Assembly (NCBI GenBank): GCA_001275005.1
Contig: JWZX01003164.1
Location: forward strand, 1-33,660
Direction: 5' to 3'
Source of the DNA: Chrysochromulina tobinii
Taxonomy: Eukaryota
DNA: 33,660 nt
The position numbers and the translations under genes are program-made. Positions within the stretch are counted from its first letter, which is position 1; the number at the start of each line of letters is the position of its first letter. The notes beneath the pieces were generated by a model. The model worked only from the letters and a program-made list of their open reading frames with translations. It had not been told where the DNA came from and searched no databases. Positions 9,578 to 33,660 of this stretch are shown in pieces.

Positions 9578-12500
9578 TTAAGTTGTCGAAATGCCATCCG
9601 CATCCCGCTCGGCCGTTAGCTCCTTCCGCTGCTTCTGCGCATCGACCATGCGCATATTTTGCTGCTCCACGATGGCTGGCTCCTCGTCTGCCGTCGCTTG
9701 CAACAATCGCTTCTCCGCCTGCAGCTTCTGCCTCTGGTAGTCTGCTTCAGCCTGGTGCTTTCGCACATTCGCCTGCACTCTCGTGGCGGCATCGTTCTCT
9801 ATTTTGCTATGGTCGGGGTGCACCCCAGCGTCCGTCTTCTCCTCCTGCACCACGGCGGCTGGCTCCTCGTCTGCCGTCGCTTGCAACAATCGCTTCTCCG
9901 CCTGCAGCTTCTGCCTCTGGTAGTCTGCTTCAGCCTGGTGCTTTCGCACATTCGCCTGCACCCCCTCGACGGCGTCGTTCTCCTTCTTGCTCGGGTCCGC
10001 CTTGACCTCTGTATGAGGGAGGGCGGCGGCCACGGAGGGCGAACGACTGGCCTCCAGGCGAACGAATCGCCACTTTGACTTATCCACGACACGCTCCCAG
10101 TATGCGTCGCCATCCCTAGCGATCTGCTCCAGCTGCTCGAGGCGGCCACTGTCCTGAGTCATGTGCTCATTATTGTAGAGCCTGAAAAACTCGAGCTTCG
10201 TACACTGCTTCTCAACAAGCCACGCCGGTGGCACCGTGCCGGTCAATTGGTTGTTGGTAAAATCCACTTTTTCGAGCGCCTGGCAGTTTGCGAGCGTGTC
10301 CGGAATTGCACCGCTCAGCTGATTGTTGTTGAGGAACAATTCCTTTAGCTTCATCAGGCCCGCGTCCTTGTGCAACCGCTTGAGCTCGTCAAGCCGTGCC
10401 TCATCCTCTTTGCCCATCTTGGAGCCGCTATTCTTTGCCTCTTCTTTCCGTTTCGTGAGATCTTTCATCTCCTCCTTCTCCCCGCCCGACAGGCCACCGA
10501 ACCTAGATGGGATGCTGCCCTTCAGCTTGTTGTTGTCCAGACAGAGGCGCTCAAGGTTTTTGAGCTCGCCGAGCTCTGCAGGCAGCTCGCCAGTGAGCTC
10601 GCAGTAGTTGAGGCTCAAGTTTTTGAGCTTCGTCATGAATTTGAAGGCCCTCGGGATCATACCTTTGAGGCTATTATAGCCCAGATGCAGGGTCTCCATT
10701 TCTATACAGGTCGCGAGCTTCTCTGGGAGCGTGCCGTGCAGTCCACGGCCCTTGAGGTTGAGCGTACGCAGCCGGTGGCAATGGAGCTGCTGGTCCCGCC
10801 GGGCGATGAGCAGGTCGTGCAGCGAGCAGTCCTTAAAGTCGTTCATCTTTGTCTGCCGCGTCAAATCCTTGATAGCAGGCCAATGTTTGCCCTTTTCCCC
10901 CTTCCACGTTTTCTGCCATGCAGCCGAATTGCCTGCCAGCGAAAGCTCAAGTAGCGGGCACTCGTCCTTCTGCAGCAGCTCTTGTAGCATTTTTTGCAGC
11001 TTCTCCCGAAGCCCATCGGCGAGCGTTGAGTTGGAGCACTTGAGGTGGAGCACAACGCCCTCACCCGCGCGACGAAGTGCTTGCTCAGTGAGCTTGCCCT
11101 GATGCTCAACCGTCACCGGCTCGAGAGCACCGAGGATGCGCGCTCCCTTGTACAGCACGTGAAGATCGTGCTTGAGGTCAAAGAGTGGCTTGACGTGCAG
11201 CTGCAGCTCGGCGATGATCCAATCCGAATCCTCGAGCTTGAGCCACAGGTTGAGAAGGATGTCGCGGTTCCCACCGGCTTTGATTGCGTCGTAGTCGGGA
11301 TTGATGCGATCCTTGGCGCGGCAGACAATTGCGCGAGACAATTGATCCGAGTCCCCTTGATAGCCATCGTGGTCATCGTCGGTCGAACGTTGCAGCTCGC
11401 CGTCGGCGCCGCTGGTGAGGAAGCTCAAGGCGACAGCCATCGCGTGCAGGGACGGAAAGACAAGGGTGCAACGCACGAGGTCGCAAAGCTTCCTGTAGTT
11501 GCCGGCATATTCTTCAGCAACCTTGGCGCAGCAGCGCGGTACGCCCTTGATTGAAGCCCCCCCCTCGTCTGTCACCTTGTCCTTCGCTTTTGGGCACGTT
11601 TTTTCAACATGCGTCTTAACCGCGTCCATAACCTTCTCGAGCACTGGAACGGCTTTCTTCGCCTTGTGGATCAACGCCAGCAGAGTGTTGAGAGCATCGT
11701 CGGCGCCGGCGCCACTGGGTTGCACCATATCCACCTTGAGCTTGTTCACCTCTTTGCAGCGCACCTTCATGTACTCGAGTGCGTCTTCCGTGATTGCCGG
11801 TGCGCCCTCCTCGATGCGCTGCTTCTCGTCTTTGCGCAGCTTTGCGTACGCTGCGTTGAAACGGAAGACCGACTGGTTGAGGAGCGGCCTGTACTGCGAG
11901 ATCGCGTTGTCACGCCGTTCAGGGTAGCTCTTCTCCATCTTCTCCAAGTCCTTCCTCTTCTCCGAAATTTTCTTCTCGAGCTCTGTGATGTCTTCGTTGT
12001 GATGAGTACGGTCTTGCTCGCGCATCAACTCCGTGCCCATTTCCTTCATCTCCTTGAGCTGATGCGCGAGTTCATTGATGGTGGTCCTCATCCGAGTCTG
12101 CGCGTTGAGCATCGCCGAGCATTCTTCCACGCACAATGCCACAGGCGCAACGGACTTGCTCAGGTTGGACGGATCGAAGTGTTTGAGCAGCGTGTCAGCA
12201 TTCAGAGGGTCGGGTTCCACTTCCTGCTGCTGCTCTTCCACCTTCGGCGGTTGATGTTCACCGTCTCGCGAGGAGGCGTCGGATCCTTTGACTGAGTGCA
12301 AGGCCACCCAAGTCTTGTCCTGAACCGAATGGTCGAAGAGGAACAGCTCGTCTCCTTCCTGGAGCTCCTTTTCGAATTCTTTGTGATGCGATCGGTCCAC
12401 TTGACCCGGAAGGACCTGCCCGTTCGCCGCGTCCGGGAACATGTTGTCAAACTCTTTGCGTACGAAGCCCGCGTTGACATCCCGCCCTGTTTCGAGCGCG

Positions 12501-13873
12501 CGCATGCGGCCTCGGCTGTACACCATCTCCCAGGGCGCAAAGCAGCCGCAGACAAAGACCTGGTAGTTGTGGCTCGTGCGCGCGCGACGCATCACTTCTC
12601 TCAGGAACTTGTGTGGATCTTTGCCCATTGTGTCGTAGACGACATGGTAGCCAGCGACGAACGCACGATCAACAAAGGCGTCCGTCATCTCCTTCTTTTT
12701 GAACGGCTGCCAGAGCATCTTCTTTCGCACGAGGAACTGCGAGCGCATGGTGGCGCTCGAGAGCGCCAGGTAGTGACCGTCGACAGAGAACCCGTCCTCT
12801 TGGAACTGGCCGTCGGGCGAAATCCACTTTGTAGGCTTCAGCCGGTCGCCATACTCCTCCTGCACCGACTTCAACTTCGCTGCGTGAGCCCCGGAGATGC
12901 ACAGGCGGTACTCGCGGCAATACATGCGGCAATCATCGGGGTCGAGGTGGACAAATTCCTCCGGCGACCATCGCTTGAGCCTGTATAGCTCCTTGAGCGC
13001 GTAGCTCTTGCCGCATCCAGGCGGGCCATACATTATGATCAGCCGCGGCCTGTCTTTCTGAGGAGCCTGTTTCCCCTTCGTGACGTCCGTGTAGTACTTC
13101 TCCGCATCCTCAAGATCTTCGACGATGTCGATCGCGCCGCCTAATTGAGTCGCGGCCTCGCTTAGGTCGACGATGGAGTAACGTGCGAGGTGCACCACAG
13201 CGTCCGTCTTCTCCTCCTGCACCACGACGGCTGGCTCCTTGTTTGCCGTCGCTTGCAACAATCGCTTCTCCTCCGTCTCCGCCTGCAGCTTCTGCTTCTG
13301 GTAGTCTGCTTCAGCCTGGTGCTTTCGCACATTCGCCTGCACTCTCGTGGCGGCATCGTTCTCCTTCTTGCTCGGGTCCGCCTTGACCTCTGTATGAGGG
13401 AGGGCGGCGGCCACCCTGGGCGGCTGCCCGCTTGCTGCCGCTGGCGACGCCCTGGTGATGCCCACGAGCTCAGTCAGCTGCCGGTTGGGTTGCTGCTGAT
13501 CGTCCAGCTTGCTGCGCAGCTCATCGAGCATGCTGCGCAGCTCACGCTTGCCACGTTCGGATTCGTCGAGCTGTCCCTGCAGCTCTCGATTCCGCCCCTC
13601 CAGCTCCTGCACCCGTGCCTGTAGAGCCTGAAACGGTCCTGAGGCATTTGCGACCCCGACGGTGAAGTCGTTGCCGTCAATTGACTCGCCTTCGATGCGG
13701 CGCAGCGCTCTCACCGGCTGGGATGGAAATAGATCGAATTTTGCAAAATCGACAACTTGCCGCACGCGATCGGGCAGTTTCCCAGTCCAACGCCTCAGGA
13801 ACGCTTCGTCGCGCGCGTATTCGCGCGCGCCGCCGCCGCGCTCATCGGTTGCTTGAGGCTCAATTGCGTCCAT
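9578..13873 (-). CDS. Large multidomain protein: coiled coil + IQ-like, zeta-toxin-like P-loop kinase, RelA/SpoT-like nucleotidyltransferase, LRRs, IQ-like repeats
   Basis: Uninterrupted ORF, first in-frame ATG at 13873 (start uncertain). Kinase motifs IIMYGPPGCGKS..LDPDDCR..VVYDT..R..TGR. Nucleotidyltransferase motifs K..R..K..DLVR..GNRD..ELQLH. LxxLxLxxNxLxGxIP repeats. Confidence 0.8.
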   Translation of the reverse strand: MDAIEPQATDERGGGAREYARDEAFLRRWTGKLPDRVRQVVDFAKFDLFPSQPVRALRRIEGESIDGNDFTVGVANASGPFQALQARVQELEGRNRELQGQLDESERGKRELRSMLDELRSKLDDQQQPNRQLTELVGITRASPAAASGQPPRVAAALPHTEVKADPSKKENDAATRVQANVRKHQAEADYQKQKLQAETEEKRLLQATANKEPAVVVQEEKTDAVVHLARYSIVDLSEAATQLGGAIDIVEDLEDAEKYYTDVTKGKQAPQKDRPRLIIMYGPPGCGKSYALKELYRLKRWSPEEFVHLDPDDCRMYCREYRLCISGAHAAKLKSVQEEYGDRLKPTKWISPDGQFQEDGFSVDGHYLALSSATMRSQFLVRKKMLWQPFKKKEMTDAFVDRAFVAGYHVVYDTMGKDPHKFLREVMRRARTSHNYQVFVCGCFAPWEMVYSRGRMRALETGRDVNAGFVRKEFDNMFPDAANGQVLPGQVDRSHHKEFEKELQEGDELFLFDHSVQDKTWVALHSVKGSDASSRDGEHQPPKVEEQQQEVEPDPLNADTLLKHFDPSNLSKSVAPVALCVEECSAMLNAQTRMRTTINELAHQLKEMKEMGTELMREQDRTHHNEDITELEKKISEKRKDLEKMEKSYPERRDNAISQYRPLLNQSVFRFNAAYAKLRKDEKQRIEEGAPAITEDALEYMKVRCKEVNKLKVDMVQPSGAGADDALNTLLALIHKAKKAVPVLEKVMDAVKTHVEKTCPKAKDKVTDEGGASIKGVPRCCAKVAEEYAGNYRKLCDLVRCTLVFPSLHAMAVALSFLTSGADGELQRSTDDDHDGYQGDSDQLSRAIVCRAKDRINPDYDAIKAGGNRDILLNLWLKLEDSDWIIAELQLHVKPLFDLKHDLHVLYKGARILGALEPVTVEHQGKLTEQALRRAGEGVVLHLKCSNSTLADGLREKLQKMLQELLQKDECPLLELSLAGNSAAWQKTWKGEKGKHWPAIKDLTRQTKMNDFKDCSLHDLLIARRDQQLHCHRLRTLNLKGRGLHGTLPEKLATCIEMETLHLGYNSLKGMIPRAFKFMTKLKNLSLNYCELTGELPAELGELKNLERLCLDNNKLKGSIPSRFGGLSGGEKEEMKDLTKRKEEAKNSGSKMGKEDEARLDELKRLHKDAGLMKLKELFLNNNQLSGAIPDTLANCQALEKVDFTNNQLTGTVPPAWLVEKQCTKLEFFRLYNNEHMTQDSGRLEQLEQIARDGDAYWERVVDKSKWRFVRLEASRSPSVAAALPHTEVKADPSKKENDAVEGVQANVRKHQAEADYQRQKLQAEKRLLQATADEEPAAVVQEEKTDAGVHPDHSKIENDAATRVQANVRKHQAEADYQRQKLQAEKRLLQATADEEPAIVEQQNMRMVDAQKQRKELTAERDADGISTT
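9826..10033. repeat. ~210-bp intragenic repeat (copy of 13198-13412; a partial third copy at ~9668-9798)
   Basis: Near-identical nucleotide copies encoding VAAALPHTEVKADPSKKENDA..VQANVRKHQAEADYQ..QEEKTDA. Confidence 0.9.
13198..13412. repeat. N-terminal copy of the IQ-like intragenic repeat
   Basis: Matches 9826-10033 apart from a 9-nt indel and a few substitutions. Confidence 0.9.
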
Positions 13874-14200
13874 CCAACGAAAGATCACGGAAGGCGGTGT
13901 GAACGTTACCGGTACATGTATCGGTAGCGCGATACACGCGCTGTCTTCAATAGTACCGAGGGCGGGAAAAGCGGGGAGAAGTTCCTGGAAGACTCCTGGA
14001 AGTACATTTAAGGAACGGTCCGACGGTTACGTAAGATCTTCCGTCGTACCTACAGTTTGTGGCCTTTGCCCCCGGCATGCATGATTCGGATCCGCTTTCA
14101 ACACGTTTCGTGAGAATTGTCGGTTTCGTGCATTCGTGTGCGGCTCCGCCTCGGCGGGCTCCTTAGACTCCTTAGCAGCGTGTGACGGCCACTGCTTCAG

Positions 14201-16466
14201 ATGGCGGCGCCCGATCTGGCAAGGCACCCGACCAGCAAATTCTCCCATGGGAGAACGTTGATCACTCAGCTAGAGACCGAGCCGAGCGCCTACGTTCAAT
14301 CCTACCTCGCCGCCGCCGGGCCACCTACAGAGATGTACATGGATGCGCTACGATCTGGCGGCAGCCTCAACATATTGCCATACGGGCGCAAGGGCCATTG
14401 GCCGGAAAGGCGCTTTGAGCAGTCTCTGGCGAAGGTGATGGCTCCACAACCACTGATCAACCATCCTCAAACGGTGTCGGCACCATCTATCGGGAAGCAC
14501 GCCGCCAGACAGGTCTCGACTGAACCAGCTGTTGGCAGGCACAACGTGTCGAAGAAGACTGCCCTCGTACCATCGGCCTCCATGCCAGCTCACAAAGACC
14601 GTGACGGTGATGTTTCAGTCGTACTTTCGAAGAACGACCGACACTCGCACAGCCTCCTTGAGCGCATCGATGAGCTCCGTGTGCAGCGCGGAGGTGCTCC
14701 AAAGATGCTGACGGCACTCTCGCATGCGGGGGCGAAATGGCTCAAAGTCAAGCAGCAGGGGGTTGCTTCGATCGCAGCGCTGCGCGTGCTGCGGGACGAC
14801 ACCCTCCAAGGGGCGTCTCGAGGGGCGTCCAGGGATCGCATTCTACGTCCGCTACTGATGCGCAAGGAGCTGCTCAAGCTCAGCGCGAGCGCCCCCAATT
14901 GGTGGAAGATGCCAGAAACGTCCGTGGAGGCCGCCGAGCGCTTCGATACGAAGCACCGCGCAAGAAGTGCAAGGGCAGACCAGCTGTGCATACTCTCGCG
15001 CAAGGCGACAAGCCCTCGCGACGCGCTGGCTCTCAAGTTTGACGAAGCTTTATTCGCCGTGCGCACCAATCGCTACTTTGAGCTCCGGGCTGTTGCACCT
15101 GCCGAGAAGGTGATCCCTCGTGCGCGCAGACCCAAGGAAGGGAAAGTGATCGAGCCCAAGCCCTTTGATGTGTACAAGAGCATCTGGGAGCCGAGACGCA
15201 AAGACGCCGATTCGAGAGACGTGTACGACACGGACGAGGTGGAATTTAATCGCTTCAGCATCGATTGGGAGGAGCTCCTCAGACTCGGCATCACCAAGCT
15301 CATATTAATGCACGACGATGGCGGCGACGACGGGGTCGAGGATGAGGACGGTGATGGAATCCCGGACGAGGTGGAGGACGTGGGCATGGTGCTGTGGAAG
15401 ATCCACGATGTGCTGAGCAGCATCTACACGTACTACTCAATTCAGAGCGGCAGCATCTCCGATGGCATCGGCCTGAATGCATGGACGGACTTTACCGATG
15501 ATTTCAACTTGGTCTCCAAGACGAGCCAGTTTTGCCAGCGCAAAGACGTCGACTTGATCTTCATCGAGGTGAATGCGAAGTCCAAGTTGGCCGCGCGCGA
15601 GATTAAAAAGCAACCGTCCACGCGCGAGCTCGCAGTAGACGGTGGCGGCGAGCTCTCCCTTTCGCGCCTAGAGTTCTACCAGGCCCTGGTGCGCCTGGCG
15701 ATCTGCAAGTATGTGAAGGGCGGCGAAATCCCGGACGTTTCGGATGCGGTCGAGCGGCTGGTCTCCACCGACATCATGAATCGAGCTATCGCCCTTGAGT
15801 CAAGGAATCGAGAGCATCTCGTCGTCGACGCCAACCTCTTTCGAGCGCGCTATGCCTACACAAAGCCAGTCTGCACGGTGCTCGAGGCAAACTTGCCATC
15901 GCTCGAAACTCTGTACGACGCGCTCTGCAACAGAAGTTACGCCCGCATGAAGCCTCGAGGCTCGAAGGATCGACTCGCAGTGGGAGAGTGGTTGGGCTTT
16001 CTCGTACGAATCGAAGCTCATCGGCAAAGATATTTCGGAGCGCGATGCCATGTTGTGCTTTGCCTTTTCCAGAATGGTCGTTGTGGACACTAGAACAGAG
16101 ATTGGAAAGCGGCGCGACGCGATGATCCAGTTCCAAGGCTTTATGGAGGCTTTGTGCCGTGCCTCGACGCTGAAAGCCCTGCCGACGGCGGCCGAGCTCA
16201 AGGCAGCAGGTTGCGACAACGCGCCTCAGTGGATCGAGGAGAATCACGACAAGTACATGGCCATTCTGAGCACGCGGGGAACGCCATGGGGCATCGATCC
16301 CGTTCGGCCAGTTGAAGAATCGCTGCAGATGGTGCTTGATATTGTGCACCATGCGGTCGCGAAGACGACCTCAAGCGCCCAGGCTGGTGACATCTCAGTT
16401 CGCAGTCGCGTCGTCTCGACAGAGCAGGCCATGCGATTTGTGACGAAGCTCAAGGGAAGGGGTTAA
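14201..16466 (+). pseudogene. Uncharacterised helical/EF-hand-like protein interrupted by a 1-nt frameshift near 16004 (pseudogene or assembly error)
   Basis: First frame reads ...GEWLGFL and continues in the next frame as (YES)KLIGKDISERDAMLCFAFSRMVV...FQGFMEALCR, which echoes the earlier LSRLEFYQALVRLA segment. Confidence 0.6.
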
Positions 16467-16666
16467 GGCTTGAACCAGCCGTGTGACAACCGCGGAACTG
16501 CTATCCGGGAAAACAGAGCTACAGCCATGGAACACTTCATGACACTTTCAACCGAGGGAGCGAGCATGCATTCCTCTTTTATCCTGTGAGCTGTGTTAGA
16601 AAAATACGATTTCGTTCATGTTCACTTTTCGTAGGGAAGTTGCTGGAGGCCGCCAGGTCAGACACG

Positions 16667-17698
16667 ATGCATCGGCTTCTTGTTGTATTACAAGCCATTG
16701 CACCAGCAATCGGGTACCATGAGTCATACTGGAAATCGTCAGATGGATCACCAAGGCCAGTGACAGTGCCGCAGAGAGAGATTTCGGAGGTGCGCAAGCA
16801 GTACATGCCAGATAGTCCTAAGTGGCGGCGTCTGCCCAAGTCATTTGTAATTGAGCCGAGCTCCTGCGCGAATGCAAGCGGCACGGCGGTGGGTGCATTT
16901 TCCGCTCGCTACAATTTTGGTTGGACAAAGGCCGAATCAAATGTCCACAACATAGCACATCAAGCAGCACAGTCTGCGGTCCGTTCGTTCAGTCCGCAGC
17001 ATTACTACCAGGACCCGCTGCACCGCGCGTCAGCGTCGGGGATGGGATCGGATCTGGGCGTGCACACAGAGGCCGACCGCACCTGGCTCATCGAAATCAT
17101 CCGACGATTTAATGTGACGACCATGATCGACGTGCCATGTGGCGATGTCAATTGGCAACTGGGTGCTTGGGAGACTGACTCGCTCACCGCGTACATTGGT
17201 CTCGACATTGTGCCGCATCTGATCGAGCTCAACGCTGCTCGCTTCGCGCACCATTCCAACAAGCAATTTGCGCCGTGGGATTTTGCGGCATGCGCACTGC
17301 CTCAGATTGTTTGGCCGAAGGAGAGCCCACAATCCCCCGACCTGGTACATGCTCGTCACGTGCTCAACCACATGCCAACTGCCCGTGCTGCCAAAGCCGC
17401 ATACCACCTGGTGACGAGCGGCGCGCGCCTGGTGGTTACAAGTGGCGCCTACACCGAGCAGAAGCAACGGCCAGCAGCGCAAAAGAATGTGCGAGAGGGC
17501 GAAATGTGGGAAAATAACATGGCAGCAGCACCGTTCTTTTTCCCTGCTCCGACTTCGTGCAACAATTTCGGCATGTGCGCTTGGGAATTTGATGACGAAT
17601 CCAGGGCCCTGTGGAAGGCTCGTTTCCGAAAGCTCTCTCGTGAGAAAGAAAATGGTGGTCAGCTCTCCCTGAAGAACAGCTCGAAGATCGCGCACTGA
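16667..17698 (+). CDS. Class I SAM-dependent methyltransferase with signal-like leader
   Basis: SGMGS, MIDVPCGDVNW (motif I), YIGLDIV, DLVHARHVLNHM. Hydrophobic N-terminus MHRLLVVLQAIAPAIG. Confidence 0.8.
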   Translation: MHRLLVVLQAIAPAIGYHESYWKSSDGSPRPVTVPQREISEVRKQYMPDSPKWRRLPKSFVIEPSSCANASGTAVGAFSARYNFGWTKAESNVHNIAHQAAQSAVRSFSPQHYYQDPLHRASASGMGSDLGVHTEADRTWLIEIIRRFNVTTMIDVPCGDVNWQLGAWETDSLTAYIGLDIVPHLIELNAARFAHHSNKQFAPWDFAACALPQIVWPKESPQSPDLVHARHVLNHMPTARAAKAAYHLVTSGARLVVTSGAYTEQKQRPAAQKNVREGEMWENNMAAAPFFFPAPTSCNNFGMCAWEFDDESRALWKARFRKLSREKENGGQLSLKNSSKIAH

Positions 17699-18064
17699 GC
17701 AACCATTCAGATCTACCGGATGCATGAGATGCACTGGAACCATGGCTGGACGACAGATTTGACATTCTTCGTGTACTAGACAGCGCCTAGGACCGCTGTT
17801 TGACGTCGTACTACTTAGTATGTAGTGGGAATCTAACAATAAATAATCGAGAAATACGACGACGGAACGCGCCGGCGTGCTGCGTGCGTGTGCTGTACCT
17901 GTAGTGCACTGAGATGCGTGCACACTGCGCGGCCGCGCAAACGAACAACAACCAGAGCGGTGGTGCTGCGCCGCCGACTGCGCGGGGCCCGGGACATTCG
18001 GCGTCGCGAGTCGCTTACCGGTCGCTTACCGGTTACTCCCCATTCGGTGTCGCGAGTCGGCCGA

Positions 18065-21000
18065 CTAGACCCACGTCGCACGCGGCGCCACATCCGCTGG
18101 TACCCATTCGCATACAAGCTCAACGCCTTCTGGCAGACGCACGGGCTTCATGGCCTTAGTCGGGGGCCTCGGAGGCAAGTGCGGGAGCGGCAGGGGTGTG
18201 AAGGCCGACGGGTGTGAAGGCAGGGCAGCGGCCGCCGAGGCGCTTGCCCGTTCACTTGCCCGTGCCGAGCCGTTGGAGCTGGCTCGCTTGAGCTCGCTTG
18301 AGCTCGCCTGAGCTCGCTTGAGACGTAACCACGCCGGCGCGCTCGCGAGGACGCGCGGGCGCTCGAAGGCGGCCCCTGGCAGCTCGGCGGCAGCGCTGAG
18401 GAGGGCGGGGTAGAGTGCCATCAGCTCGCCGCGTCGCGCTGCCTTGCGTGCCAGCATGGGGCCCTCGGCAGCCCTCGCCACACGCGCCATCCTCGCCGGT
18501 GCTGCCGTCACCGCCTGCCCCTCAGTCGCTGCCCCCTCCGGTGCTGGCATCGCCTCGCGGGCGACCACCTCGTCCTGCGCCAAAGCGTCCTCCTGGGCGC
18601 TCGCGTCCTCCTGGGCACTCGCGTCGTCCTGAGCACTCGCGTCGTCCTGAGCGTCCTCGTGCAGGAGCCGCCTCGCCAGCTCGATCGCGGGCCCAAGGCA
18701 TCCGCCAGGCGCCAAGTGCTCTGCCAGTGCCGCTGGAGCGAGCTCTGTAACTGCCGCGCTGGGCAGTACGAGCCCTGCGATGATCGGCGAGGGTAATGGA
18801 GAGGCACTTGAGCACGGTGCCCGGAGCACGCCTCGAGGTGCACTTGCCGCACTTGGCGCACTTGGCGCCGCTATGCTCAGGCGGACGGTGCCGTCGTCGG
18901 TGCCGACCGGCTGGAGCTGCGCGCTCAGGAAGGCGACAAGCTGGGAGGACCTCGGGGCATGCTCGAAGGGGTACTCCCATGTATAGTCAGGGCACGAGCC
19001 ATCGGCGTACCTGGGAAGTCATCAGAAGTCATCAGGAGTCATCAGGAGTCATCAATAGTCATCAGGAGCCATCAAGAGTCATCAGGAGTCATCAGGAGTC
19101 ATCAGGAGTCATCAGGAGTCATCAGGAGTCATAAAGAGTCATCAAGAGTCATCAGGAGTCATCAGGAGTCATCACGAGCCATCTGCGTACGTCTGCACCG
19201 TCCAAAGCACGCCCCGAAGGAACTCGGCGGCGGGCGCCAGGTCTTCGTCAGACGCGGGTGTGAAGGCAGACGTGGGTGTGAACCCACGCTCCTCCAACGG
19301 CCGCGGCACGGGCGGCTCACAGGCTTGTGCTCCGTGATCTGAGCCGTTGGATCGTTCGATCCGCTCCACCGCCTCCACCGCCTTCACCGCAAAGGCGCCC
19401 AACCGCTTTTGCTCAAGACCCACCCCCACAGAGGCGGCCCGTGCGGCTGATGGCGTCATCCCCTCAGCCGACACGAGCTGGCTAGCAGCTGCGGTCGCCA
19501 CCTTATGGATGTCTTTGAGCACCAGGACCAAGGCGAGTAGCAGCGCACACTCAAAGGTTTTACGGCTCGGCTCGAGCAAGGCGCTCGCTGCAAAGCGCCG
19601 TGAGCGCCGCACGGCGCGGTAGGCTGACCAGCATCGCTCAAAAGTCGCCTCACGCACTTTGGGCAGGTAATCATTGCCCATCAGGCACGAGAGCACGATG
19701 AGGTCGAGCGGTGGAATCGATGGACTCGGGTTCGTCAATGGGTTCGTCATCATCAGTGGACTCGATGGACTCGATGAACTCGATGGAGCGGCTGCATCCG
19801 CCGGGGCGGCGCCCAATACGGCGCTCGAGCCAGCTCTAGCGCCAGCGGCTCCAGCGGCGCGCGCACGGGACGGCCTGGCCGCCGCCCAGCGCGCGTCCGC
19901 GCTGCGGCCGTAAAAGTCCTCAAACTCTTGCTTCGTGTAGCTGCGCCCGTCGGAAGGATCGATGCGCTTCTCGACGCCCACGACGGCGCCAGTGCCCACG
20001 ACGGCGCCGGAGCCCACGATGGCGCCATGGCTGAGCCCGAGGCTCGCGCACAGCGCATCGAGGGAGATGAGCGACGTGGGCTCCGAACTGGAACGTGGTA
20101 GCTCACGTAGCACGGACACCTGCGAACCGTATTGGGCGAGCGCGTGAGAGGAGCCCGACGCAGAAGAGCGGAAGTGGAGCCCATCAGAGAGGCAATCAGA
20201 GGTAATCAGAGGTAATCAGAAGTGGAGCCCATCAGAGGCAATCAGAGGTAATCAGAAGAGGAGCCCATCGGAGGTAATCAGAGGTAATCAGAGGTAATCA
20301 GAAGAGGAGCCCATCAGAGAGGCACTCAATGGTCATCAGAGGCGCGAGATGTCGGCGGATTTGATGAGGGAGGCAATCAAAGGTCATCAGGGGAGAAGTG
20401 GAGCCCATCAGAGGCCGTCGGAGCGAATCCGAGTCCTCACCTGCCAGCTTGGAGAGAGGGTGAGCGCCTGAAGCACGAGGTCGCCGTCCTGGCCTACCAA
20501 CACGACGCTGCTCCTTCGCGCCGCGGACGGCGAGGCTTGCGTGCGCGAGGCGCCGCGCCCAGCCTCGCGAGCATCGCTCGCCCGGCCGCGCTGCTCGCGC
20601 TGTGCGCGCGCTTGCTCGATCTGACGAAGCGCGCCGAGCAACTTGATCTCACCCTCTCCCGCCACATCGGAGCCGGACATCCAAAACGTGAGGCCGCGCG
20701 CTCGGTAGGCCGCGAGCTCGGCACAACAAAAGTAGAGCATCGCGTTCTCGAAGTCGTCCATAAAGCGCGTGCCCGGCGTGATGGCCAGGCTCGAGACGGC
20801 TTGCGCGCCCTTTTTCTTCGACGATGCGGCCTCCTTGTTGAACGTCTTGCGGCGGCGTTTCAGCTGCGTGGCGAGCTTTGCCAGAGGCGCCGGGCCGTCG
20901 ACCGCGAGGAGGACGACCGAGCCCGGCACAACGCGGCGCAGCGTGGAGTGCAATTTCGAATAACACAGCTTGATTGCATCGTCCGAGCTCGTGGCGCGGC

Positions 21001-21208
21001 GGAGCGCCGTGTGCAGGATGGCATTCATGTCAAACGCGACCACCGACGCGGAGAAGCCATCGGGCACCTCGATGAGGCACTCGGGCGCGGTTTCCGTGAC
21101 CCACGTGCAAAAGCCAGGCACGCCCGCCGTGGGCACAGTCACACGTGGCGGGGCTCTCGGCGCAGCGAGCACGAGGTGCAGGACGCTCGTCGGCACGGGC
21201 CACAACAT
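18065..21208 (-). CDS. XRN-family 5'-3' exoribonuclease (nuclease core); exons 21208-20441, 20119-19191, 19010-18065 (~880 aa)
   Basis: GVPGF, FDMNAILH, AVDGPAPLAK, ITPGTRFM, GEGEIK, QDGDL, MGNDYLP, W..Y..GSCPDYTWEYPFEHAP. Exons join in frame. Confidence 0.88.
18570..18660 (-). repeat. Coding 18-nt tandem repeat (QDDASA/QEDASA)
   Basis: About 5 copies in the low-complexity C-terminus of the XRN-like protein. Confidence 0.75.
19011..19190 (-). other. XRN intron 2 (GT-AG, 180 nt), tandem TGATGACTCC 10-mers plus 18-nt exon duplication
   Basis: 19173-19190 vs 18993-19010 (1 mismatch). Acceptor ttcccag|gtacgcc. Removal restores QTYADGSCPDY. Confidence 0.88.
20120..20440 (-). other. XRN intron 1 (GT-AG, 321 nt), CTCTGATTAC / CTGATGGGCTCC repeats
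   Basis: Donor cag|GTGAGG, acceptor ttcgcag|gtgtcc, phase 0. Confidence 0.8.
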
Positions 21209-21476
21209 ATCGGGAATCGTGGCGAGGGGTGTGAAATGGCGGGATCACGTCTATTTTGAATTCAAGGTACAGCTGTCGATCCGGATACATGTATATTCCC
21301 ACCCTACTCCCTCTTCGCCCTTGGGACATGGGTAAAGCACTCAGTTTGTGTTTGAATTCCCGTATCCGGTCGACTCTGAGCGCGCCCGATTGCCTCACCG
21401 AGGTGCCATGCCACCACACCCGCCCGAGCTATAGATCTGGCCTCCCTCCGGTTGCGCTTCATGCCCGAGAGCATGT

Positions 21477-23663
21477 CTACCGCCTACGACCCCCCGGGCC
21501 GTGTCCACCGCACCCGCAGCAGCGGCCACACATATGATGCTGGCAACGGAGCGAGCGCTGGTTTTGGCAGCGAACGCGCCCGTTCTCTAACAGTCCTCGA
21601 CAAAAGCTGGGATTCCGTGGTGGTAGCGCCGGACGGTCGTCCTCCGCACCCCGTGCGTTGCCAGGAGCGGGCTGGACGACGGCGGCAGCGTTCGCGTGTG
21701 CCACGATCCCCGTAAAGAGGCCGCACTCGCACCCTGGGGTCCCGTGCGTATTGTTAGCGGTCGGGGCGGTCGAGCGGTACGCCACGCCACAGGCGTAGCA
21801 GAAGGCGCAGCCACACCGGCACTCGACGAAGTTGCATTGGTCTTGGCCCTGTCGTTCGACAAGCTCACGGCAGCGCGGGCACGAGCGAAGGCCCTTGTCA
21901 CGCGCGTGTTGCAGCAGGGCGATATCCTCGGCCTGCCGCAGGTGAGCTGGCAGGTTCTGGAAGGTTACGCAGTCCAACGCCTCATGCCACGGCACCCCAC
22001 AACGAACGCAGAGCGGCTTGTGGCAGTGCGAGCATTGGGCGCGTGGCCAGCCATCGATCTCACCCTCCTCGGGGCGTTCGAAGACGGCGGAGCATTCGCG
22101 GCTTGGGCAGTAGATTCGCTTCTCGACCGGGATGATCGAGATGGCTTGCGCTTGGCGAAGCTTGCTGAGCGCGACGCTGTGAACACCGAGCAGCTCTTCA
22201 CACAGAGCGTTTGTCGCGCGGCCACCGCAGTCCGGGTGGACACACTTGACGAAGGCTGAGCGTTGATTGTCGGCTTCCTTCTCGCAGTATGTGGTCATGC
22301 ACGGCCGGCACACCCAGTGCTGACACTGGGCTGCGCCTAGCGCACCGCCGGAGCTGCTTGCACCGCCGCTGGGGCCGGCAGCGCTGCCACACGCGCCGCT
22401 GGCACCCGCGCCGCTGGCACCCGCGCCGCTGCTACTCGCGCCGCGGCCATCGGCTGCAGCCTTGCTTGCCAGCACTGCGTCGGGAAGCTCACAGCAGACG
22501 CACTCCTCCGGATCCTTAGTCTCCAGGCAAATGAGGCACGCCATCACGAGGACGGGCTGCTTGCGCTTTCGGGAGGCAACGCTCGCGACGACGCTCGTGG
22601 ACGGCGCCGGCATGCGGCGCAGCACTATGATGCGCGAAGGGTCGAAGACACAATCCTCCTCTAGACCGCTCGGCACCATCCCACAATGGGGAGGCACCCA
22701 CGCCGTGTCGTACCCGTGCTGAGACCACGTCCGCCGCATCGGATGGTCGGGTGCGTCAATCTTCTTCACCCGTCCCACGCGGACGAGGCACTTGAGGATG
22801 ACCCTACCCGTCGTGTCGCCACGTGGTACGTCGAGCGGGTAGCGCGCAGCCTTGTTGACGTCACGTGACATGTACACGCCGCGCCCCAGCATCCCATCGG
22901 CAGATGGCACGAACCCGTGCTTCTCAATTTGTTCAGCCGCCTCCGGGTGGGTGCCGTGGTACATAATGTAGCGACGACCGTCGGCGGGCTCCTCATTCGG
23001 CTCGAGCGCCGACTCGAGCGCCGACTCCTCGTCACCGCGCTGGGGAGGAGGCCGCGCAGCGTCCTGTCTGAGGGGCCCGTCGTCTGCGCGCCTCTTCCGC
23101 CCGCGCCCATCGGCACCCCCGTCGTCCATCTGAGCCGCGCGGGCGGCCTCTTCGGCCGCCTCTTTTGCGGCCGTCGCTCGCGCGGCGACGCGCACAGCAT
23201 CCGCGAGCATCCGGCGCAAGGGTCCGTCGCCACCGGCGTCCGGGTGCTCGATCAGGTCGCCTCTCTGTCGCCATTCATTCTCCGGGCAACTGTCGAGTCT
23301 CCGGGCGAGCTCCTTGTCCCGTTGTGCAATCTGATGCTGCAGATGGGCCGCTTGTTGGAGTTCCCCGGCCACGGCCGCATCGGCGGCAGCCACGTGACGG
23401 GCAGCATGAATGCGGCGAGCGACCACGGCGTCGCGCGCAGTGGCGACAGCGGCAATGCTTTCTGCTAGCGCACGCTGCTCTGCTAGGGCATCATGGTCCT
23501 CAATGCCTTCTTCGAGTCCCATAGCCACCTGTTGGGCATACGCCTCGTCGTGTGCGAGTATTTGCTGACGCAGGAGCTCCTCGTGCTGGAGCTCGAGGGC
23601 GTACTCATCGTGATACTCATCGGCGGTTAGGTCGACGACTCCGGGAACAGCGACTTGCATCAT
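21477..23663 (-). CDS. Gig2-like ADP-ribosyltransferase (PARP-fold) domain fused to RBR (RING1-IBR-Rcat) E3 ubiquitin ligase, with C-terminal Cys/His finger
   Basis: ART domain MYHGT..GF..S.DGMLGRGVYMSRD..KA.RYP..GYDTAWVPP.CGMV.SGLEEDCVFDP. RING1 CLIC..HWVCRPC..C..PDC. IBR YCPSREC..C..C..LC..C..PWH..C. Rcat CPRC..CNFVECRCG..FCY.C. Confidence 0.88.
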   Translation of the reverse strand: MMQVAVPGVVDLTADEYHDEYALELQHEELLRQQILAHDEAYAQQVAMGLEEGIEDHDALAEQRALAESIAAVATARDAVVARRIHAARHVAAADAAVAGELQQAAHLQHQIAQRDKELARRLDSCPENEWRQRGDLIEHPDAGGDGPLRRMLADAVRVAARATAAKEAAEEAARAAQMDDGGADGRGRKRRADDGPLRQDAARPPPQRGDEESALESALEPNEEPADGRRYIMYHGTHPEAAEQIEKHGFVPSADGMLGRGVYMSRDVNKAARYPLDVPRGDTTGRVILKCLVRVGRVKKIDAPDHPMRRTWSQHGYDTAWVPPHCGMVPSGLEEDCVFDPSRIIVLRRMPAPSTSVVASVASRKRKQPVLVMACLICLETKDPEECVCCELPDAVLASKAAADGRGASSSGAGASGAGASGACGSAAGPSGGASSSGGALGAAQCQHWVCRPCMTTYCEKEADNQRSAFVKCVHPDCGGRATNALCEELLGVHSVALSKLRQAQAISIIPVEKRIYCPSRECSAVFERPEEGEIDGWPRAQCSHCHKPLCVRCGVPWHEALDCVTFQNLPAHLRQAEDIALLQHARDKGLRSCPRCRELVERQGQDQCNFVECRCGCAFCYACGVAYRSTAPTANNTHGTPGCECGLFTGIVAHANAAAVVQPAPGNARGAEDDRPALPPRNPSFCRGLLENGRVRCQNQRSLRCQHHMCGRCCGCGGHGPGGRRR

Positions 23664-24013
23664 TAGGGATGGGCGACGCGACTTCTATGGGATGAACAAG
23701 GGCTGAGAGAATCGCAGTGTGCCTGGCACGCGTGCTGTGAATTAGAAAAAAAGGGTTCACAGCCCCCAATGTTATAGCTCGAAACCCAAGACACCGGACC
23801 GGCGTACATACACGAGTCAAGCTCCCAGCCAGCTCCTTCTGTCCTAGCAAGCAAGCAAGGTACTTGTGTTGTTTCGACTTATTTAGCTTGCTTGCTTGCA
23901 GTCAGTCAGTTTCGTCGCGGTCCCCCCACGCTAGACGCTTCTGTCCTTCATGTCCGTCTACTCGAACTCTCTAACACACACGCAGGCCGAGGCGTGTGCG
24001 GTGTGGGCCTTAC

Positions 24014-29604: not shown

Positions 29605-31695
29605 ATGGCCTCTACGTTCCTCGCCCACGGCACTATCGCCCAGCTCTCCAAGTCCAACGCCCACGCCAAGACGACCGTCGACCAATGGGCCGTCTGCATT
29701 CTTGACAAGGACGGGGCGCAGCCCACCCTCGAGGGCACCTTCGCCGTCTTCAACGAGAAGCTGGAAGCCGAAGCCTTCCTCGCCGCGCACGACGCGTGGG
29801 CCGACAACCCCACCGTCCCGCCGTCCGCTGCCCCATCCGCCCACACTTTCAATGGCTTCGTCGTCACTTTGGCTCGCAAGAAAGCGGATCTTCACCATCT
29901 TTCCGCCAACTGGACAGACTGGTGCACCCCGGGCGCGGCGCCAGCGCCCGCGCTCGACCCCTTCCTCGGCCGCCTCGTCAAGATCCTCGTCAAAGACCCG
30001 GCCGGCGCCTTCGTTCACGTCGTCGCCACAGTCGCATCCAAGGACATCGCCTCCGACGTCTACACGCTGTCGTACAACCTGAACGGAGTGAACTCCGACT
30101 GCGAGTACACCGCAGCGCAACTCAAGGATTGGTGCAAGCGTTTTCCCGACGCGCTGCAGAGCGGCAAGGCCCCTGCCGCATCGCCGCCCGCACCAGGCGC
30201 ATCCGGAGCCGGCTACTCGATCGTGTTGAACCCCACCTTCGACCCCCTTCTTGGCCTCATCAAGAAGCTCACCGTCTCGACTAAGTTCGGTGACCCTCAC
30301 ACGATCGACGCCAGAGAGGCTCTGACGACGCTCATCGGCCGGCACGGGGACAGCTCCCCCTTCGCGAAGCTCACCCTCACCGTCCAGGGCGCCGCCGTCG
30401 ACGACGCTCCCGGCGGCCCCATCCACTCCATCGTCCACGGCCTCCACGCTCTGAACGCCGAGCTATCCTCGTTCGTGCCCCTCCACCCCAACCGTTTTCT
30501 CTGGCCCTCTGACTCGGCCAAGAAACTCGGAGAGGCGTTCGCATCGGTCTTCAACCGCGGCAACCCCTCTTCGCCTCAGCACCCCCTCGCGGAGGTGCTT
30601 AAGACCAAGGCGATCGACTCTAGCGAATGGGACAAGCTCCTCGCCGATCACTGGATGATCACCGTCGATCCCGCCCGTCACGTCTTCGCCCAGTCCAAAC
30701 GGCAAGACACCTACATCATGACCGGCATGCTCGAGCACTTCCTCCGGCGCACCACCTCCGCCGCCGCTCTCGCCGCCCTTGATGCCAATCAGGACAGCGG
30801 CTCGCTCCTCCTCCTCGTCAGCGAGTTGGCAGCACCCAAGTCCCAACCATTTCCGGCCCCTCAGACCCCTGTCAACATTCAGAACCCGTTTCAGATTCAA
30901 CCCGCTCAGAACCAAGCTCAGCTCTCGGCCTTCCAGCTCCAGTTGCTCCAAGGGCATCAGGCTGGAGTCCAAGTTGTCCTCAACGACAAGAAAACAGCTG
31001 ACACGTCGAGGGACGTGCTCCAGCTGCGCTCGGATGCACAGGCGTTGGCTCACGACCCCCTCGCCTCGGCCGAGCTCGAGACCCTCATCAAGATCAGGGC
31101 TGGCGGCGACGGCAAGCTGCTCGAGGACGCCGTCAAGGCGGTCACGAGCCCGAAGCTCAAGCGCCTTCTCGCCTCCGAGGGCGACGAACTCACGAAACAC
31201 TTGCAAGGTGCGCTCCCCCAACTCGCCATGCACATCGATTCAATCCGCTGCAAGCTCGAAGAGCGAATGCAGGCCGCGATCACGGGCGGGGCGACGGCCT
31301 CGCTCACATCGCGGCAAAAGCTGGCCATCAGGGCCGCTCGCTGCGGGCACCTTCGGCGCCTGCACCTTTTCCATCTCATCGACGAAGACGACTGCGGCAC
31401 CAAGGAGGCGCCGCTTGCACAACTCGGCAAGTGGAACAAGGACAAGCAGAAGGCAAGCCTGGCTCTGGCCTTTCGCCAGCTGGAAATGATCCTCCAGTTT
31501 AGCAACCCCTCCATGGTCGGCGAAGTTATGTCCTTCTTCAGCCGCCTGCAAACCCGCCTCGCGGCCCTCGTGGACTCCGGAGGCCGCTGCCGTCTTCGCC
31601 TGGGCTATCTTGACCTCGAGGGGGCTGATCGCCTCGAGTTGGCCCTGGTGTGCGCCCTGAGCTTGGTGTTTGAAACACTTGTCGCCTGCGGTTGA
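29605..31695 (+). CDS. Putative retroelement ORF1 (gag-like position), unknown protein
   Basis: Long ORF with ATG at 29605, a Q/P-rich linker and no recognisable catalytic motif. Confidence 0.6.
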   Translation: MASTFLAHGTIAQLSKSNAHAKTTVDQWAVCILDKDGAQPTLEGTFAVFNEKLEAEAFLAAHDAWADNPTVPPSAAPSAHTFNGFVVTLARKKADLHHLSANWTDWCTPGAAPAPALDPFLGRLVKILVKDPAGAFVHVVATVASKDIASDVYTLSYNLNGVNSDCEYTAAQLKDWCKRFPDALQSGKAPAASPPAPGASGAGYSIVLNPTFDPLLGLIKKLTVSTKFGDPHTIDAREALTTLIGRHGDSSPFAKLTLTVQGAAVDDAPGGPIHSIVHGLHALNAELSSFVPLHPNRFLWPSDSAKKLGEAFASVFNRGNPSSPQHPLAEVLKTKAIDSSEWDKLLADHWMITVDPARHVFAQSKRQDTYIMTGMLEHFLRRTTSAAALAALDANQDSGSLLLLVSELAAPKSQPFPAPQTPVNIQNPFQIQPAQNQAQLSAFQLQLLQGHQAGVQVVLNDKKTADTSRDVLQLRSDAQALAHDPLASAELETLIKIRAGGDGKLLEDAVKAVTSPKLKRLLASEGDELTKHLQGALPQLAMHIDSIRCKLEERMQAAITGGATASLTSRQKLAIRAARCGHLRRLHLFHLIDEDDCGTKEAPLAQLGKWNKDKQKASLALAFRQLEMILQFSNPSMVGEVMSFFSRLQTRLAALVDSGGRCRLRLGYLDLEGADRLELALVCALSLVFETLVACG

Positions 31696-33660
31696 GAAAG
31701 TGCGGGCGGTTGTGGTGCTCATCTCCACTGGTGTTTCGAGCATGGCGCTGCGACGACGATGACGACTACGACCTCGACGGCTCCCCTGACCTCTGCGATC
31801 CCTGTGATGTAGAGCTCGGACAGCAGCTCAAGTCCGTCAAGGCCAAGGACTTTGGCGACATCTGCTACTCGCAGATGGGAGGAAAGGACGAGCTCAGGAA
31901 CATCCCCGTCCTCGACATGCGCCGCCCATCGATCCTCTCCAACCCCTTTGGCATGGGCAAGGACGAGTCCAAGCGCAACCTCGTCTGCGACGCCTACCAA
32001 GAATGGTGGCGCCGCCGGACGGTCACCGTCGACGAGATCTGCGTGCAGTTTGGTATCGTGCGTGCCAACTCCTGGGACGGCCTCGAGATCGCCGCCTCCG
32101 AGCTCCGCGTTCGAGGCCTCAACCAGCTGGCCCAGATCGTCTCCAAAGGACATCGGATCGCCGCCGGCTGCGCCTGCCCGGCAGACAAGAGATGCCACAC
32201 AGAGCACATCAGAAGCATGGTCGCCGACCAGGCTCGGCTCCTACGGTCCAAGAGCGACAGCACGCAGCTCGTCGAACCACCGGCGAACGACAAGTACCTG
32301 ATCCTCTTCGCCGGCGACAAGCTCGCCGCAGGCCGGCTCGCCGACCAGATTCGCCTCAAGGATGACGAGGCGTCGGTCGAGGAGTACGACATTCGAAACG
32401 ACACGCATCAAGATCTTTGCGACGTCGAGCTGCAGCTCAACATCCTTAGCCGCATCCTCGACGGAGAATTCAAAGCAGTTCACATCGCCGTGCCCGAAGG
32501 CTCGTACGCCGTCGTGCGCGGGGTGCAGATCCGCTCAAAGGCGCAAGCTCGTGGCGTGCTCGGCGAAGCAGGCCCCGGCGATAAGCTCAGCAAGTACCTG
32601 CGCAAGCACAACGACCTCGCCGACTTTGCCGCCCGCGTTGCGGCGGCCGCTGACAAGAACGGCACGTTGTGGAGCATGGTGAACCCGGCCGAGCACGGCG
32701 ATCCCGGATCGCCGGCCTTCGACCCCGAGCACGCCGATTGGGGCCAGCTCTGGCAACAGCCCGCGATCATCGAGCTCGTCAAGGGCGGAGCCAAGAAGAC
32801 CTTGGTCCCACTGTGCAAGTGTGGCTCCCCCTTTGGCGTCTACGTCGACGTGCTCACCTCCGCCAAGATGCCCAACCTCTTTCTTACCAGCGAACTTCTC
32901 TGCGACCATGTGATCCACGAAGAGTTTCCAATTCTCGAGGACCACCGCGGCGAAGACAGGCCGCCAAGGACCGCCTACCTCCCGATCGGCTTCAACGTCC
33001 TTTTGGCGCGTGCGATGGTCGGCGAGCACCGACGCAGCTCATCGAAAAAGTCCTCCAAGACCCCATCCTCGTCCAAGGGCAACATGCACGTCGGCTCGAC
33101 TCGACCGCATGCGATCGACGGCGGCCACGCCGACCAACTCCCGACCCCGCGCATTCACAAGCTCGGCAGTCTGCGCTGCTTGGAGCCCGAGCTCGACAGC
33201 GTGCTCCTCGTGGAAGCACTGCCGCGCTCGAACATTCCGAGAAGAACTGAGCCCGACCTCGCCCCGGTGCGGCCTGAGCCGCCGGGCCCGTTCACCACAG
33301 CTCAGCTCATTCCGCTCGCAGTGCAACAGCAAGTGCTACAGTTTGCCAGCGAGGTCACCGAGGTGCTCAGAAGGGCAGATGGCGGCGCCAACGGCTGGCG
33401 CGTAGCTCGCAAGCTCCGCCCAACCCCGATGGCTTTCTCCGAGGCCGAGGCCCTCAACGAGTGCGGCTGGGGCTTTGCCTGGAGGCGCCGCGACGCCCAA
33501 GCCCCTCTCACTCAGGAGTCGCTCTGGGATGCCATCCGGCCCTCGTCGTACCCCGATGACCACCCCTGCGCCGGGCAGCCTAATCTGATCAGCGCCGAGC
33601 GCTTCTCAGAGCTCGCCGCGGCCGAAGATTTCCCCGACAAGCAGGTCACCTCGTGGATCC
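31674..33660 (+). CDS. Putative retroelement ORF2, open to window end: DUF4326-like domain plus degenerate C5 DNA-methyltransferase-like domain
   Basis: Absent from the ORF track because it has no stop in the window. Manual translation is open from 31674 (first ATG 31875). RRPSILSNPF..R..VCDAY..GCACP..RCH.EHI, then YLILFAG..YDI..DL..VHIAVPEGSY..MVNP..LW..C..CDH..H..AYLP. Confidence 0.75.

What the first reader, a model, noticed from the sequence alone, without database searches (positions are those of the whole stretch)
21477..23663. Gig2-type ADP-ribosyltransferase fused to an RBR E3 ligase: candidate algal antiviral effector
Seen: the domain at ~22625-22970 has HGT, GVYMS and SGLEEDC motifs, followed by RING1-IBR-Rcat and preceded by acidic helices resembling ubiquitin-binding UIM/MIU motifs (DEAYAQQV, DKELARRL). 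Established: this motif string is typical of Gig2, the virus/interferon-induced PARP-fold family of fish and amphibians, which is usually stand-alone. ADP-ribosylation coupled to ubiquitination is an antiviral theme (PARP9-DTX3L). Inference: one polypeptide that ADP-ribosylates and ubiquitinates targets, possibly against giant viruses. Rcat keeps the catalytic Cys but has F in place of the usual His (CNF vs CNH).
Basis: partly seen in the sequence, partly recalled or inferred. Interest (0 to 1): 0.82.

Follow-up and report, generated by a model that had tools for sequence, protein, structure and literature searches.

The report
Algal ADP-ribose writer fused to ubiquitin ligase
A freshwater alga has one transcribed gene that joins a relative of a fish virus-induced ADP-ribose-adding enzyme to a ubiquitin ligase, so a single protein likely puts both tags on the same target; a role against viruses is possible but untested.

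Summary
Window 21477-23663 (-) is one uninterrupted 728-codon ORF: acidic helices with MIU-like motifs, a Gig2-family ART domain (aa 223-351), RING1-IBR-Rcat and a Cys-rich tail. One DNA contig spans it; RNA contigs tile it without introns and bridge the ART-RING1 junction. The ART is 55-68% identical to its best vertebrate Gig2 domain matches, folds like PARP/tankyrase (pLDDT 95, Z 12.3) and keeps H236-Y264-E336. Its nearest kin are not fish genes but a WWE-membrane-Gig2 family with a named haptophyte member (99/99). The host is most likely Chrysochromulina. The fusion was found in only three clusters (74-98% identical) and in none of my paper searches. Both enzyme domains show purifying selection (pN/pS about 0.1; linkers 0.84; small counts). 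The CNF motif does not imply a dead ligase: unfused RBRs share it, and HOIL-1 has Trp there. Best reading: a one-chain ADP-ribosylation plus ubiquitination writer (inferred). Nothing here supports an antiviral role beyond analogy. A new domain combination of two known families.

The parts
21477..23663 (-). Whole intronless ORF, 728 aa, MIU-like helices + Gig2 ART + RBR + Cys tail
   Evidence: DNA contig spans it; RNA contigs tile it
23229..23630 (-). N-terminal acidic/Ala-rich helices (aa 12-145) with 4 D-x2-h-A-x2-h motifs and one h-A-x2-LQ-x-E motif; predicted ubiquitin-binding (MIU-like); last motif plus W-x3-GD-x-IE-x-P shared with a Gonium RBR
   Evidence: AF2 helices pLDDT 60-77; 4 motifs vs 0.11 in shuffles, pattern chosen after the fact; alignment A1; no Pfam UIM hit
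22611..22997 (-). Gig2-family ADP-ribosyltransferase domain (aa 223-351); H236 (22958-22956), Y264 (22874-22872), Y275, E336 (22658-22656)
   Evidence: Pfam PARP; Gig2 hits; model pLDDT 95.3; PARP/tankyrase fold; column conservation
22227..22538 (-). RING1 (C376, C379, C447, H449, C452, C455, C474, C479) split by an insert
   Evidence: ligand spacing read; aligns with green-algal RBRs and ARIH2 from aa 445; Pfam RING models do not score it
22332..22487 (-). Gly/Ala/Ser low-complexity insert in RING1 (aa 393-444); not an intron
   Evidence: read through by RNA contig X11 record 1 (21415-22481, 0 gaps); shorter similar inserts in Gonium and Chlamydomonas RBRs
21969..22109 (-). IBR domain (aa 519-565, C6HC)
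   Evidence: Pfam IBR aa 514-565
21723..21881 (-). Rcat/RING2 (aa 595-647): predicted catalytic C610 (21836-21834), F612 in place of His, HGTPGCxC extension
   Evidence: alignment to ARIH2; CNF and HGTPGC kept in 20 of 20 full fusion members held and in unfused P0099, P0279
21501..21602 (-). C-terminal Cys/His-rich tail (aa 688-721), possible extra zinc finger
   Evidence: cysteines kept in P0003 and P0004; no meaningful Pfam hit at E 10

Best explanation
This is one transcribed algal gene in which a Gig2-family PARP-fold domain sits inside an RBR ubiquitin ligase, and the protein likely ADP-ribosylates a target and then ubiquitinates that same target. Shown: architecture, fold, conserved catalytic residues, transcription across the join, purifying selection on both domains. 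Inferred: the ART uses NAD+ (H236-Y264-E336) to add ADP-ribose, probably mono; RING1 binds E2~Ub and Rcat C610 takes ubiquitin as a thioester and discharges it, most likely on lysine because the +2 His is missing; the N-terminal MIU-like helices bind ubiquitin and would hold or activate the enzyme on already tagged substrates; the outcome would be turnover of the target. Origin, inferred: an ART from the WWE-membrane-Gig2 family was inserted between the N-terminal helix and RING1 of an algal-type RBR, within the Chrysochromulina lineage. A defence role is my guess at about 0.3.
For: One ORF and one DNA contig. RNA contigs of 3 of 4 runs laid bridge ART to RING1 (records 11, 19, 24), X14 record 22 bridges the helices to the ART, X11 record 1 runs from the RING1 insert past the stop; silent stretches are empty in RNA runs. 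ART fold: pLDDT 95.3, tankyrase-2 Z 12.3, rmsd 2.2 over 122 residues; H, Y, E columns kept in 79, 80 and 78 of 81 rows. All RBR zinc ligands and C610 present; kept in 20 of 20 full fusion sequences. pN/pS ART 0.10 (2 vs 6 sites), RBR core 0.08 (2 vs 7), linkers 0.84 (9 vs 4). Gonium RBR P0096 shares the N-terminal motif, RING1 insert and IBR-Rcat linker but has no ART. ART nearest kin 99/99. RBR His is not essential family-wide; HOIL-1 has W462 there (PMC9834252, passages).
Against: No activity was measured, and I saw no paper showing NAD+ transfer by any Gig2 protein (PMC3617106 says the function of the conserved parts is unknown). Fusion shows proximity, not a shared substrate; no substrate-binding domain is evident. 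The full-length model has pTM 0.26 and gives no ART-RBR contact. No single RNA contig spans the whole ORF. Polymorphism counts are small and come from 3 loci and 1 RNA run. The N-terminal match to Gonium is modest (score 85; 4 of 2000 shuffles as high). E336 is placed on the catalytic Glu by range arithmetic and recalled PARP numbering, not by a residue-level superposition.
Confidence: 0.5

Rival explanations
1. Both domains are active but the ART is a regulator: it ADP-ribosylates the RBR itself, the E2 or ubiquitin, switching ligase activity with NAD+ or stress, and does not mark the ligase's substrate.
For: The ART sits directly before RING1, 22 residues away, where RBRs carry regulatory elements; RBRs are commonly allosterically controlled (PMC9834252, passages). 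Both domains are under constraint.
Against: No predicted ART-RBR contact (low confidence); Gig2 domains elsewhere occur alone or in tandem, so they do not need an RBR partner.
Confidence: 0.2
2. The RBR attaches ubiquitin as an ester to the ADP-ribose that the ART has just written (hybrid ADPr-Ub), using a distal His such as H640 as the base, as HOIL-1 uses H510.
For: HOIL-1 has an aromatic residue at the +2 position and a distal His that enables O-linked transfer; HOIL-1 and RNF216 ubiquitinate maltose in vitro (PMC9834252, PMC11962058, passages). HGTPGC is kept in all fusion members. ADPr-Ub is a known mark made by Deltex ligases (PMC12687431, passages).
Against: CNF and HGTPGC are also in unfused RBRs without an ART (P0099, P0279), so they are not an adaptation to the fusion. 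H640 may simply be a zinc ligand (recalled RING2 pattern). Loss of the His favours lysine over hydroxyl in HOIL-1 (PMC11962058).
Confidence: 0.12
3. A dedicated antiviral effector against giant viruses, induced on infection like fish Gig2 (first reader's view; compatible with the best explanation, scored as a function claim).
For: Fish gig2 genes are interferon-induced and one protected cells from virus (PMC3617106, abstract). C. parva has lytic giant viruses that carry several E3 ligases (PMC6459981, PMC12085832, passages). Lineage-restricted fusion.
Against: No expression contrast available. No sign of diversification in the ART. Neighbours are ordinary genes (XRN, EF-hand protein, Nop56-like, MCM). 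The two CpV genome papers have no hit for 'ADP-ribos' or 'PARP' in the main text. Nearest ART kin are membrane-anchored WWE proteins of unknown role.
Confidence: 0.3
4. One half is catalytically dead: a His-less RBR scaffold, or an ART that only binds NAD+/ADP-ribose.
For: F612 replaces the usual His; RING1 carries a 52-aa insert and is not scored by Pfam RING models.
Against: C610 and all zinc ligands kept; Rcat is the best conserved region (91% in P0004); complete H-Y-E set; purifying selection on both.
Confidence: 0.12

Closest known systems
Gig2 (GCRV-induced gene 2) family of non-amniote vertebrates
   Same: ART domain 55-68% identical to the best vertebrate domain matches, same HGT / GVY / EEDC motifs; 89 of 100 hits are named vertebrate proteins carrying this domain.
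   Different: Vertebrate members are single or tandem units (PMC3617106), some with Ubl, CARD, kinase or caspase fusions; none seen with an RBR. This ART lies outside the vertebrate group. No interferon system in algae (own knowledge).
WWE-membrane-Gig2 proteins (named member: Haptolina brevifila, P0160)
   Same: Nearest ART relatives, 64-72% identity, joined at 99/99.
   Different: They have WWE and hydrophobic segments, no RBR; not characterised in the papers I saw. P0160 itself was left out of the trees because its domain is interrupted.
RBR E3 ligases; nearest named are Gonium pectorale and Chlamydomonas incerta RBRs (Plant II-like: no Ariadne, RWD or helicase domain)
   Same: RING1-IBR-Rcat, catalytic Cys, RING1 insert, LPAHLR-x-AED linker, N-terminal ARRL motif.
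   Different: No ART in those proteins; CNH rather than CNF. Subfamily not tested by phylogeny.
PARP14/PARP9-DTX3L, PARP7-DTX2, tankyrase-RNF146; PARP10 (UIMs); Dictyostelium U-box-Macro-PARP; fungal clade 6A PARP-E2
   Same: Coupling of ADP-ribosylation and ubiquitination, in complexes or in one chain (PMC12687431, PMC2964712, passages).
   Different: These use RING, U-box or E2 modules and classical PARP domains; none joins a Gig2 ART to a thioester-forming RBR.

Membership tests
Gig2 family | High sequence similarity over the whole basic unit (PARP-signature-like N part plus conserved C part) | tested here: met
   55-68% identity over 117-129 aa to best vertebrate domains; 132 representatives at E<=1e-30
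Gig2 family | Nested among vertebrate Gig2 genes | tested here: not met
   Groups with WWE-membrane-Gig2 type, 95/85 and 99/99; family member, not a vertebrate-clade orthologue
Gig2 family | Virus or interferon induction | not testable with these tools
   Only assembled contigs, no infection contrast
ARTD / PARP-fold ART | Diphtheria-toxin-like ART fold | tested here: met
   Foldseek PARP2 E 2.2e-6, TMq 0.71; tankyrase-2 Z 12.3, rmsd 2.2, 122 aligned
ARTD / PARP-fold ART | H-Y-E triad | tested here: met
   H236, Y264 align with PARP3/PARP12 HGT and G-x-Y motifs; E336 starts a strand and, if the range ends are ungapped, falls on PARP1 988 and TNKS2 1138 (catalytic numbers recalled)
ARTD / PARP-fold ART | NAD+-dependent transfer | not testable with these tools
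   needs assay
RBR E3 ligase | RING1-IBR-RING2 zinc ligands in order | tested here: met
   RING1 split by an insert
RBR E3 ligase | Catalytic Cys in RING2 | tested here: met
   C610 aligns to the CNH cysteine of ARIH2
RBR E3 ligase | Catalytic His two residues after the Cys (common, not universal) | tested here: not met
   F612 in 20 of 20 fusion sequences; HOIL-1 has W462 there (PMC9834252)
RBR E3 ligase | Ub-thioester formation | not testable with these tools
   needs assay
Plant II RBR subfamily | Phylogenetic placement in Plant II | not tested
   too few named RBR sequences held; best named hits are chlorophyte RBRs; Atlas Streptophyta IBR cluster at 0.75 is a lead only
MIU/UIM ubiquitin-binding helices | Helical motif with central Ala | tested here: inconclusive
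   helical in model; motif enriched over shuffles but pattern recalled and chosen after seeing the sequence; no Pfam or Atlas hit

The most novel reading that the evidence does not exclude
A single-chain writer of the hybrid ADP-ribose-ubiquitin mark: the Gig2 ART ADP-ribosylates a viral or host target and the His-less RBR esterifies ubiquitin onto that ADP-ribose through its own thioester, an independent algal invention of the PARP-Deltex output used in defence against giant viruses.
Probability: 0.08. Interest if true: 0.88.

Novelty: new variant of a known kind. Interest (0 to 1): 0.56.

Why it matters
In animals ADP-ribosylation and ubiquitination are coupled by separate proteins. A natural 728-aa chain with both catalytic centres intact is a compact system for asking whether an RBR can act on ADP-ribosylated targets, and for giving the Gig2 family its first biochemical read-out. 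It also shows that Gig2 domains are a mobile module in protists, repeatedly joined to ADP-ribose readers and ubiquitin-system parts. If induced by Chrysochromulina viruses, it would be a named defence effector in a culturable alga-virus pair.

Tried and rejected
Mis-assembly or chimeric ORF: rejected. RING1 insert as an intron: rejected. DNA carry-over in RNA runs: unlikely, since X11 and X14 have zero depth in all 6 bins of 13800-17777 and all three RNA runs in the 4 bins of 31038-33660, where DNA depth is 84-236; no spliced joint was listed as a positive control. Transfer from fish: not supported. Viral or prokaryotic origin: viral contigs gave no relative of the full protein and one distant ART at 27% (L001); prokaryote genomes gave one 36-residue match (L009); these pattern scans are insensitive. 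Other Gig2-RBR fusions: none among the best 150 of 923 representatives, 100 hits, 6 or 1; 773 representatives were not seen and candidate lists were capped. Fusion rows were not one clade in the free trees, but one origin is not rejected (p-AU 0.42). Full-length AlphaFold model too poor to use for domain contacts. Atlas: leads under 0.9 or nothing. No host genome held, so copy number and paralogues were not checked. No complex prediction was run: no algal ubiquitin or E2 was held. Earlier-findings look-ups found no report of this fusion. The RBR review by Eisenhaber was not held; paper supplements were not read and could list such architectures.

Full report
Observation. Window 21477-23663 on the minus strand is one open frame of 728 codons. 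Pfam finds IBR (E 1.1e-12) and PARP (E 1.4e-6) above their cut-offs, and the C-terminal third aligns with human ARIH2 (E 3.3e-6). The order is: helical N-terminus (aa 12-145), linker, ART (223-351), RING1 split by a 52-aa Gly/Ala/Ser insert (376-479), IBR (519-565), Rcat (595-647), Cys-rich tail (688-721).

The join is real and transcribed. One contig of DNA run X1 covers 20273-23807 without differences (this run may be the source of the window). Seven metagenome loci hold the gene at 99-100%, three of them (L004, L005, L008) as distinct syntenic variants. Six of 20 listed runs are RNA runs holding 70-80% of the words; I laid five of the six. In one search, contigs of X12, X13 and X16 (3 of 4 runs) run from the ART into RING1, and X11 record 1 runs from inside the RING1 insert past the stop with no gap. 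X14 record 22 joins the helices to the ART. No joint is listed in the ORF. No single RNA contig spans the whole gene. Two long flanking stretches are nearly empty in the RNA runs while covered in DNA, so carry-over of DNA is unlikely. Contigs give no strand or level.

Host. The neighbouring ABC1 kinase clusters at 90% with a protein named Chrysochromulina parva, so the window is most likely from this freshwater haptophyte genus. Neighbours are ordinary eukaryotic genes.

The ART. Of 100 hits, 89 are named vertebrate proteins matching the ART only, 5 are unnamed ART-only proteins, 3 are RBR-only and 3 have both domains. Domain identity to the best vertebrate Gig2 matches is 55-68%. A model from an 81-row alignment has pLDDT 95.3 and matches PARP2/PARP1 by Foldseek and tankyrase-2 at Z 12.3, rmsd 2.2 over 122 residues. 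H236, Y264 and E336 are kept in 79, 80 and 78 of 81 rows. The aligned ranges place H236 and E336 on PARP1 862 and 988 if their ends are ungapped (catalytic numbers recalled). In trees of 79 and 38 domains chosen from 243 held, the fusion ARTs join a set of WWE-membrane-Gig2-type proteins at 95/85 and 99/99, apart from vertebrate Gig2 (bootstraps had not fully settled). Within that type Pfam finds WWE in P0160, P0244, P0262, P0326 and weakly P0094, not in P0092 or P0093; several tree rows are fragments; the named member P0160 (Haptolina) was not in the trees. Zhang et al. (PMC3617106; abstract and passages) already noted Gig2-like ESTs in Emiliania and Karenia and state that the function of the conserved parts is unknown. 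Among 30 proteins scanned, Gig2 domains are fused to WWE, PBZ, ubiquitin-like, CARD, kinase-RNase and caspase domains, so 'usually stand-alone' is too narrow.

The RBR. All zinc ligands are present and C610 aligns with the CNH cysteine of ARIH2. The best named relatives are Gonium and Chlamydomonas RBRs, which share a shorter RING1 insert, the IBR-Rcat linker and, in Gonium, the last N-terminal motif, but have no ART (N-terminal score reached by 4 of 2000 shuffles). This suggests that the ART was inserted into an existing RBR. CNF is in 20 of 20 full fusion sequences held and in unfused P0099 and P0279, so it predates or is independent of the fusion. In RBRs the Cys is essential while the other triad residues vary; HOIL-1 has W462 at this position and uses a distal His510 (PMC9834252, passages), which is needed for O-linked but not lysine transfer (PMC11962058, abstract and passages).

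N-terminus. Four D-x2-h-A-x2-h motifs occur against 0.11 in shuffles, plus YALELQHEE. The MIU pattern is recalled and was chosen after seeing the sequence; PMC2699339 (passages) confirms only that MIUs bind ubiquitin through a key Ala. Pfam and the Atlas give nothing. Ubiquitin binding is a prediction.

Selection and range. Against P0004, identity is 74% in the ART, 91% in Rcat and 55-59% in linkers. Variants from three loci and one RNA run give pN/pS 0.10 for the ART (2 vs 6 sites), 0.08 for the RBR core (2 vs 7) and 0.84 for linkers (9 vs 4); counts are small. The fusion was seen in three 90% clusters of 35, 25 and 4 members, fragments included, and in only one of the best 150 of 923 representatives. 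It looks lineage-restricted, within the limits of capped searches.

Mechanism. I commit to a coupled writer: the ART ADP-ribosylates a target, the RBR ubiquitinates the same target through C610, probably on lysine, and the helices bind ubiquitin (0.5). Rivals: ART as regulator of the ligase (0.2), ester-linked ADPr-Ub writer (0.12), one dead half (0.12). Every catalytic step is inferred. The antiviral role (0.3) rests on analogy with fish Gig2 and on the existence of C. parva viruses rich in E3 ligases (PMC6459981, PMC12085832; passages); neither paper's main text mentions ADP-ribosylation or PARP.

Novelty. Paper searches for Gig2 with ADP-ribosyltransferase, RBR-PARP fusion terms and Gig2, RBR, haptophyte and ligase terms listed nothing that describes this fusion; I saw listings only for most of them, and the library lacks most subscription papers. 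PARP domains fused to U-box, UIM or E2 modules are known (PMC2964712, passages), and PARP-E3 coupling in trans is well studied (PMC12687431, passages). PMC2904391 (passages) was used for RBR subfamily definitions; PMC5512222, PMC9503650, 10.1101/693333 and 10.1101/2025.07.01.662619 (passages) class Gig2 as ART-related without data on activity in the passages seen. I cannot exclude unpublished PARP-RBR entries in databases. Verdict: a real, undescribed combination of two known enzyme families; interest 0.56.

Noticed in passing
P0329 (Lampetra planeri) and P0140: Lamprey Gig2 domains are fused to tandem ubiquitin-like domains ending in RLRGG, like ISG15; an ART that could itself be conjugated, and an independent link of Gig2 to the ubiquitin system.
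   Followed up: partly
P0160, P0244, P0262, P0326, P0094: A WWE - hydrophobic segments - Gig2 family (named member Haptolina brevifila); nearest kin of this ART; not seen in the papers searched.
   Followed up: partly
P0239, P0158, P0161, P0208, P0277, P0278: Other Gig2 fusions: three PBZ fingers; CARD plus kinase; kinase plus RNase (2-5A type); caspase; TPR-Sushi-SRCR. Some may be gene-model read-throughs.
   Followed up: no
window 21501-21602 (-): C-terminal C-x-NQ-x4-C-x-H-x2-C-x2-CC tail recalls the SHI/STY-type zinc finger (recalled; Pfam gave no such hit at E 10).
   Followed up: partly
window 9578-13873 (-): 1431-aa ORF with a zeta-toxin-like P-loop kinase domain and C-terminal LRRs, lower GC than its neighbours; a central stretch looks RelA/SpoT-like by eye (recalled, untested). 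Possible sensor-effector protein.
   Followed up: no
window 18065-21244 (-): XRN 5'-3' exonuclease gene directly downstream on the same strand, in several frames separated by repeat-filled stretches.
   Followed up: no
window 30358-33660: DNA depth doubles and many variant bases appear, with no RNA cover; ORF 31674-33659 has a DUF4326 hit. Likely a multi-copy mobile element.
   Followed up: no
L001:5001-5342: Distant ART domain (27%) inside a long protein of a viral contig, likely a polyvalent-protein ART.
   Followed up: partly
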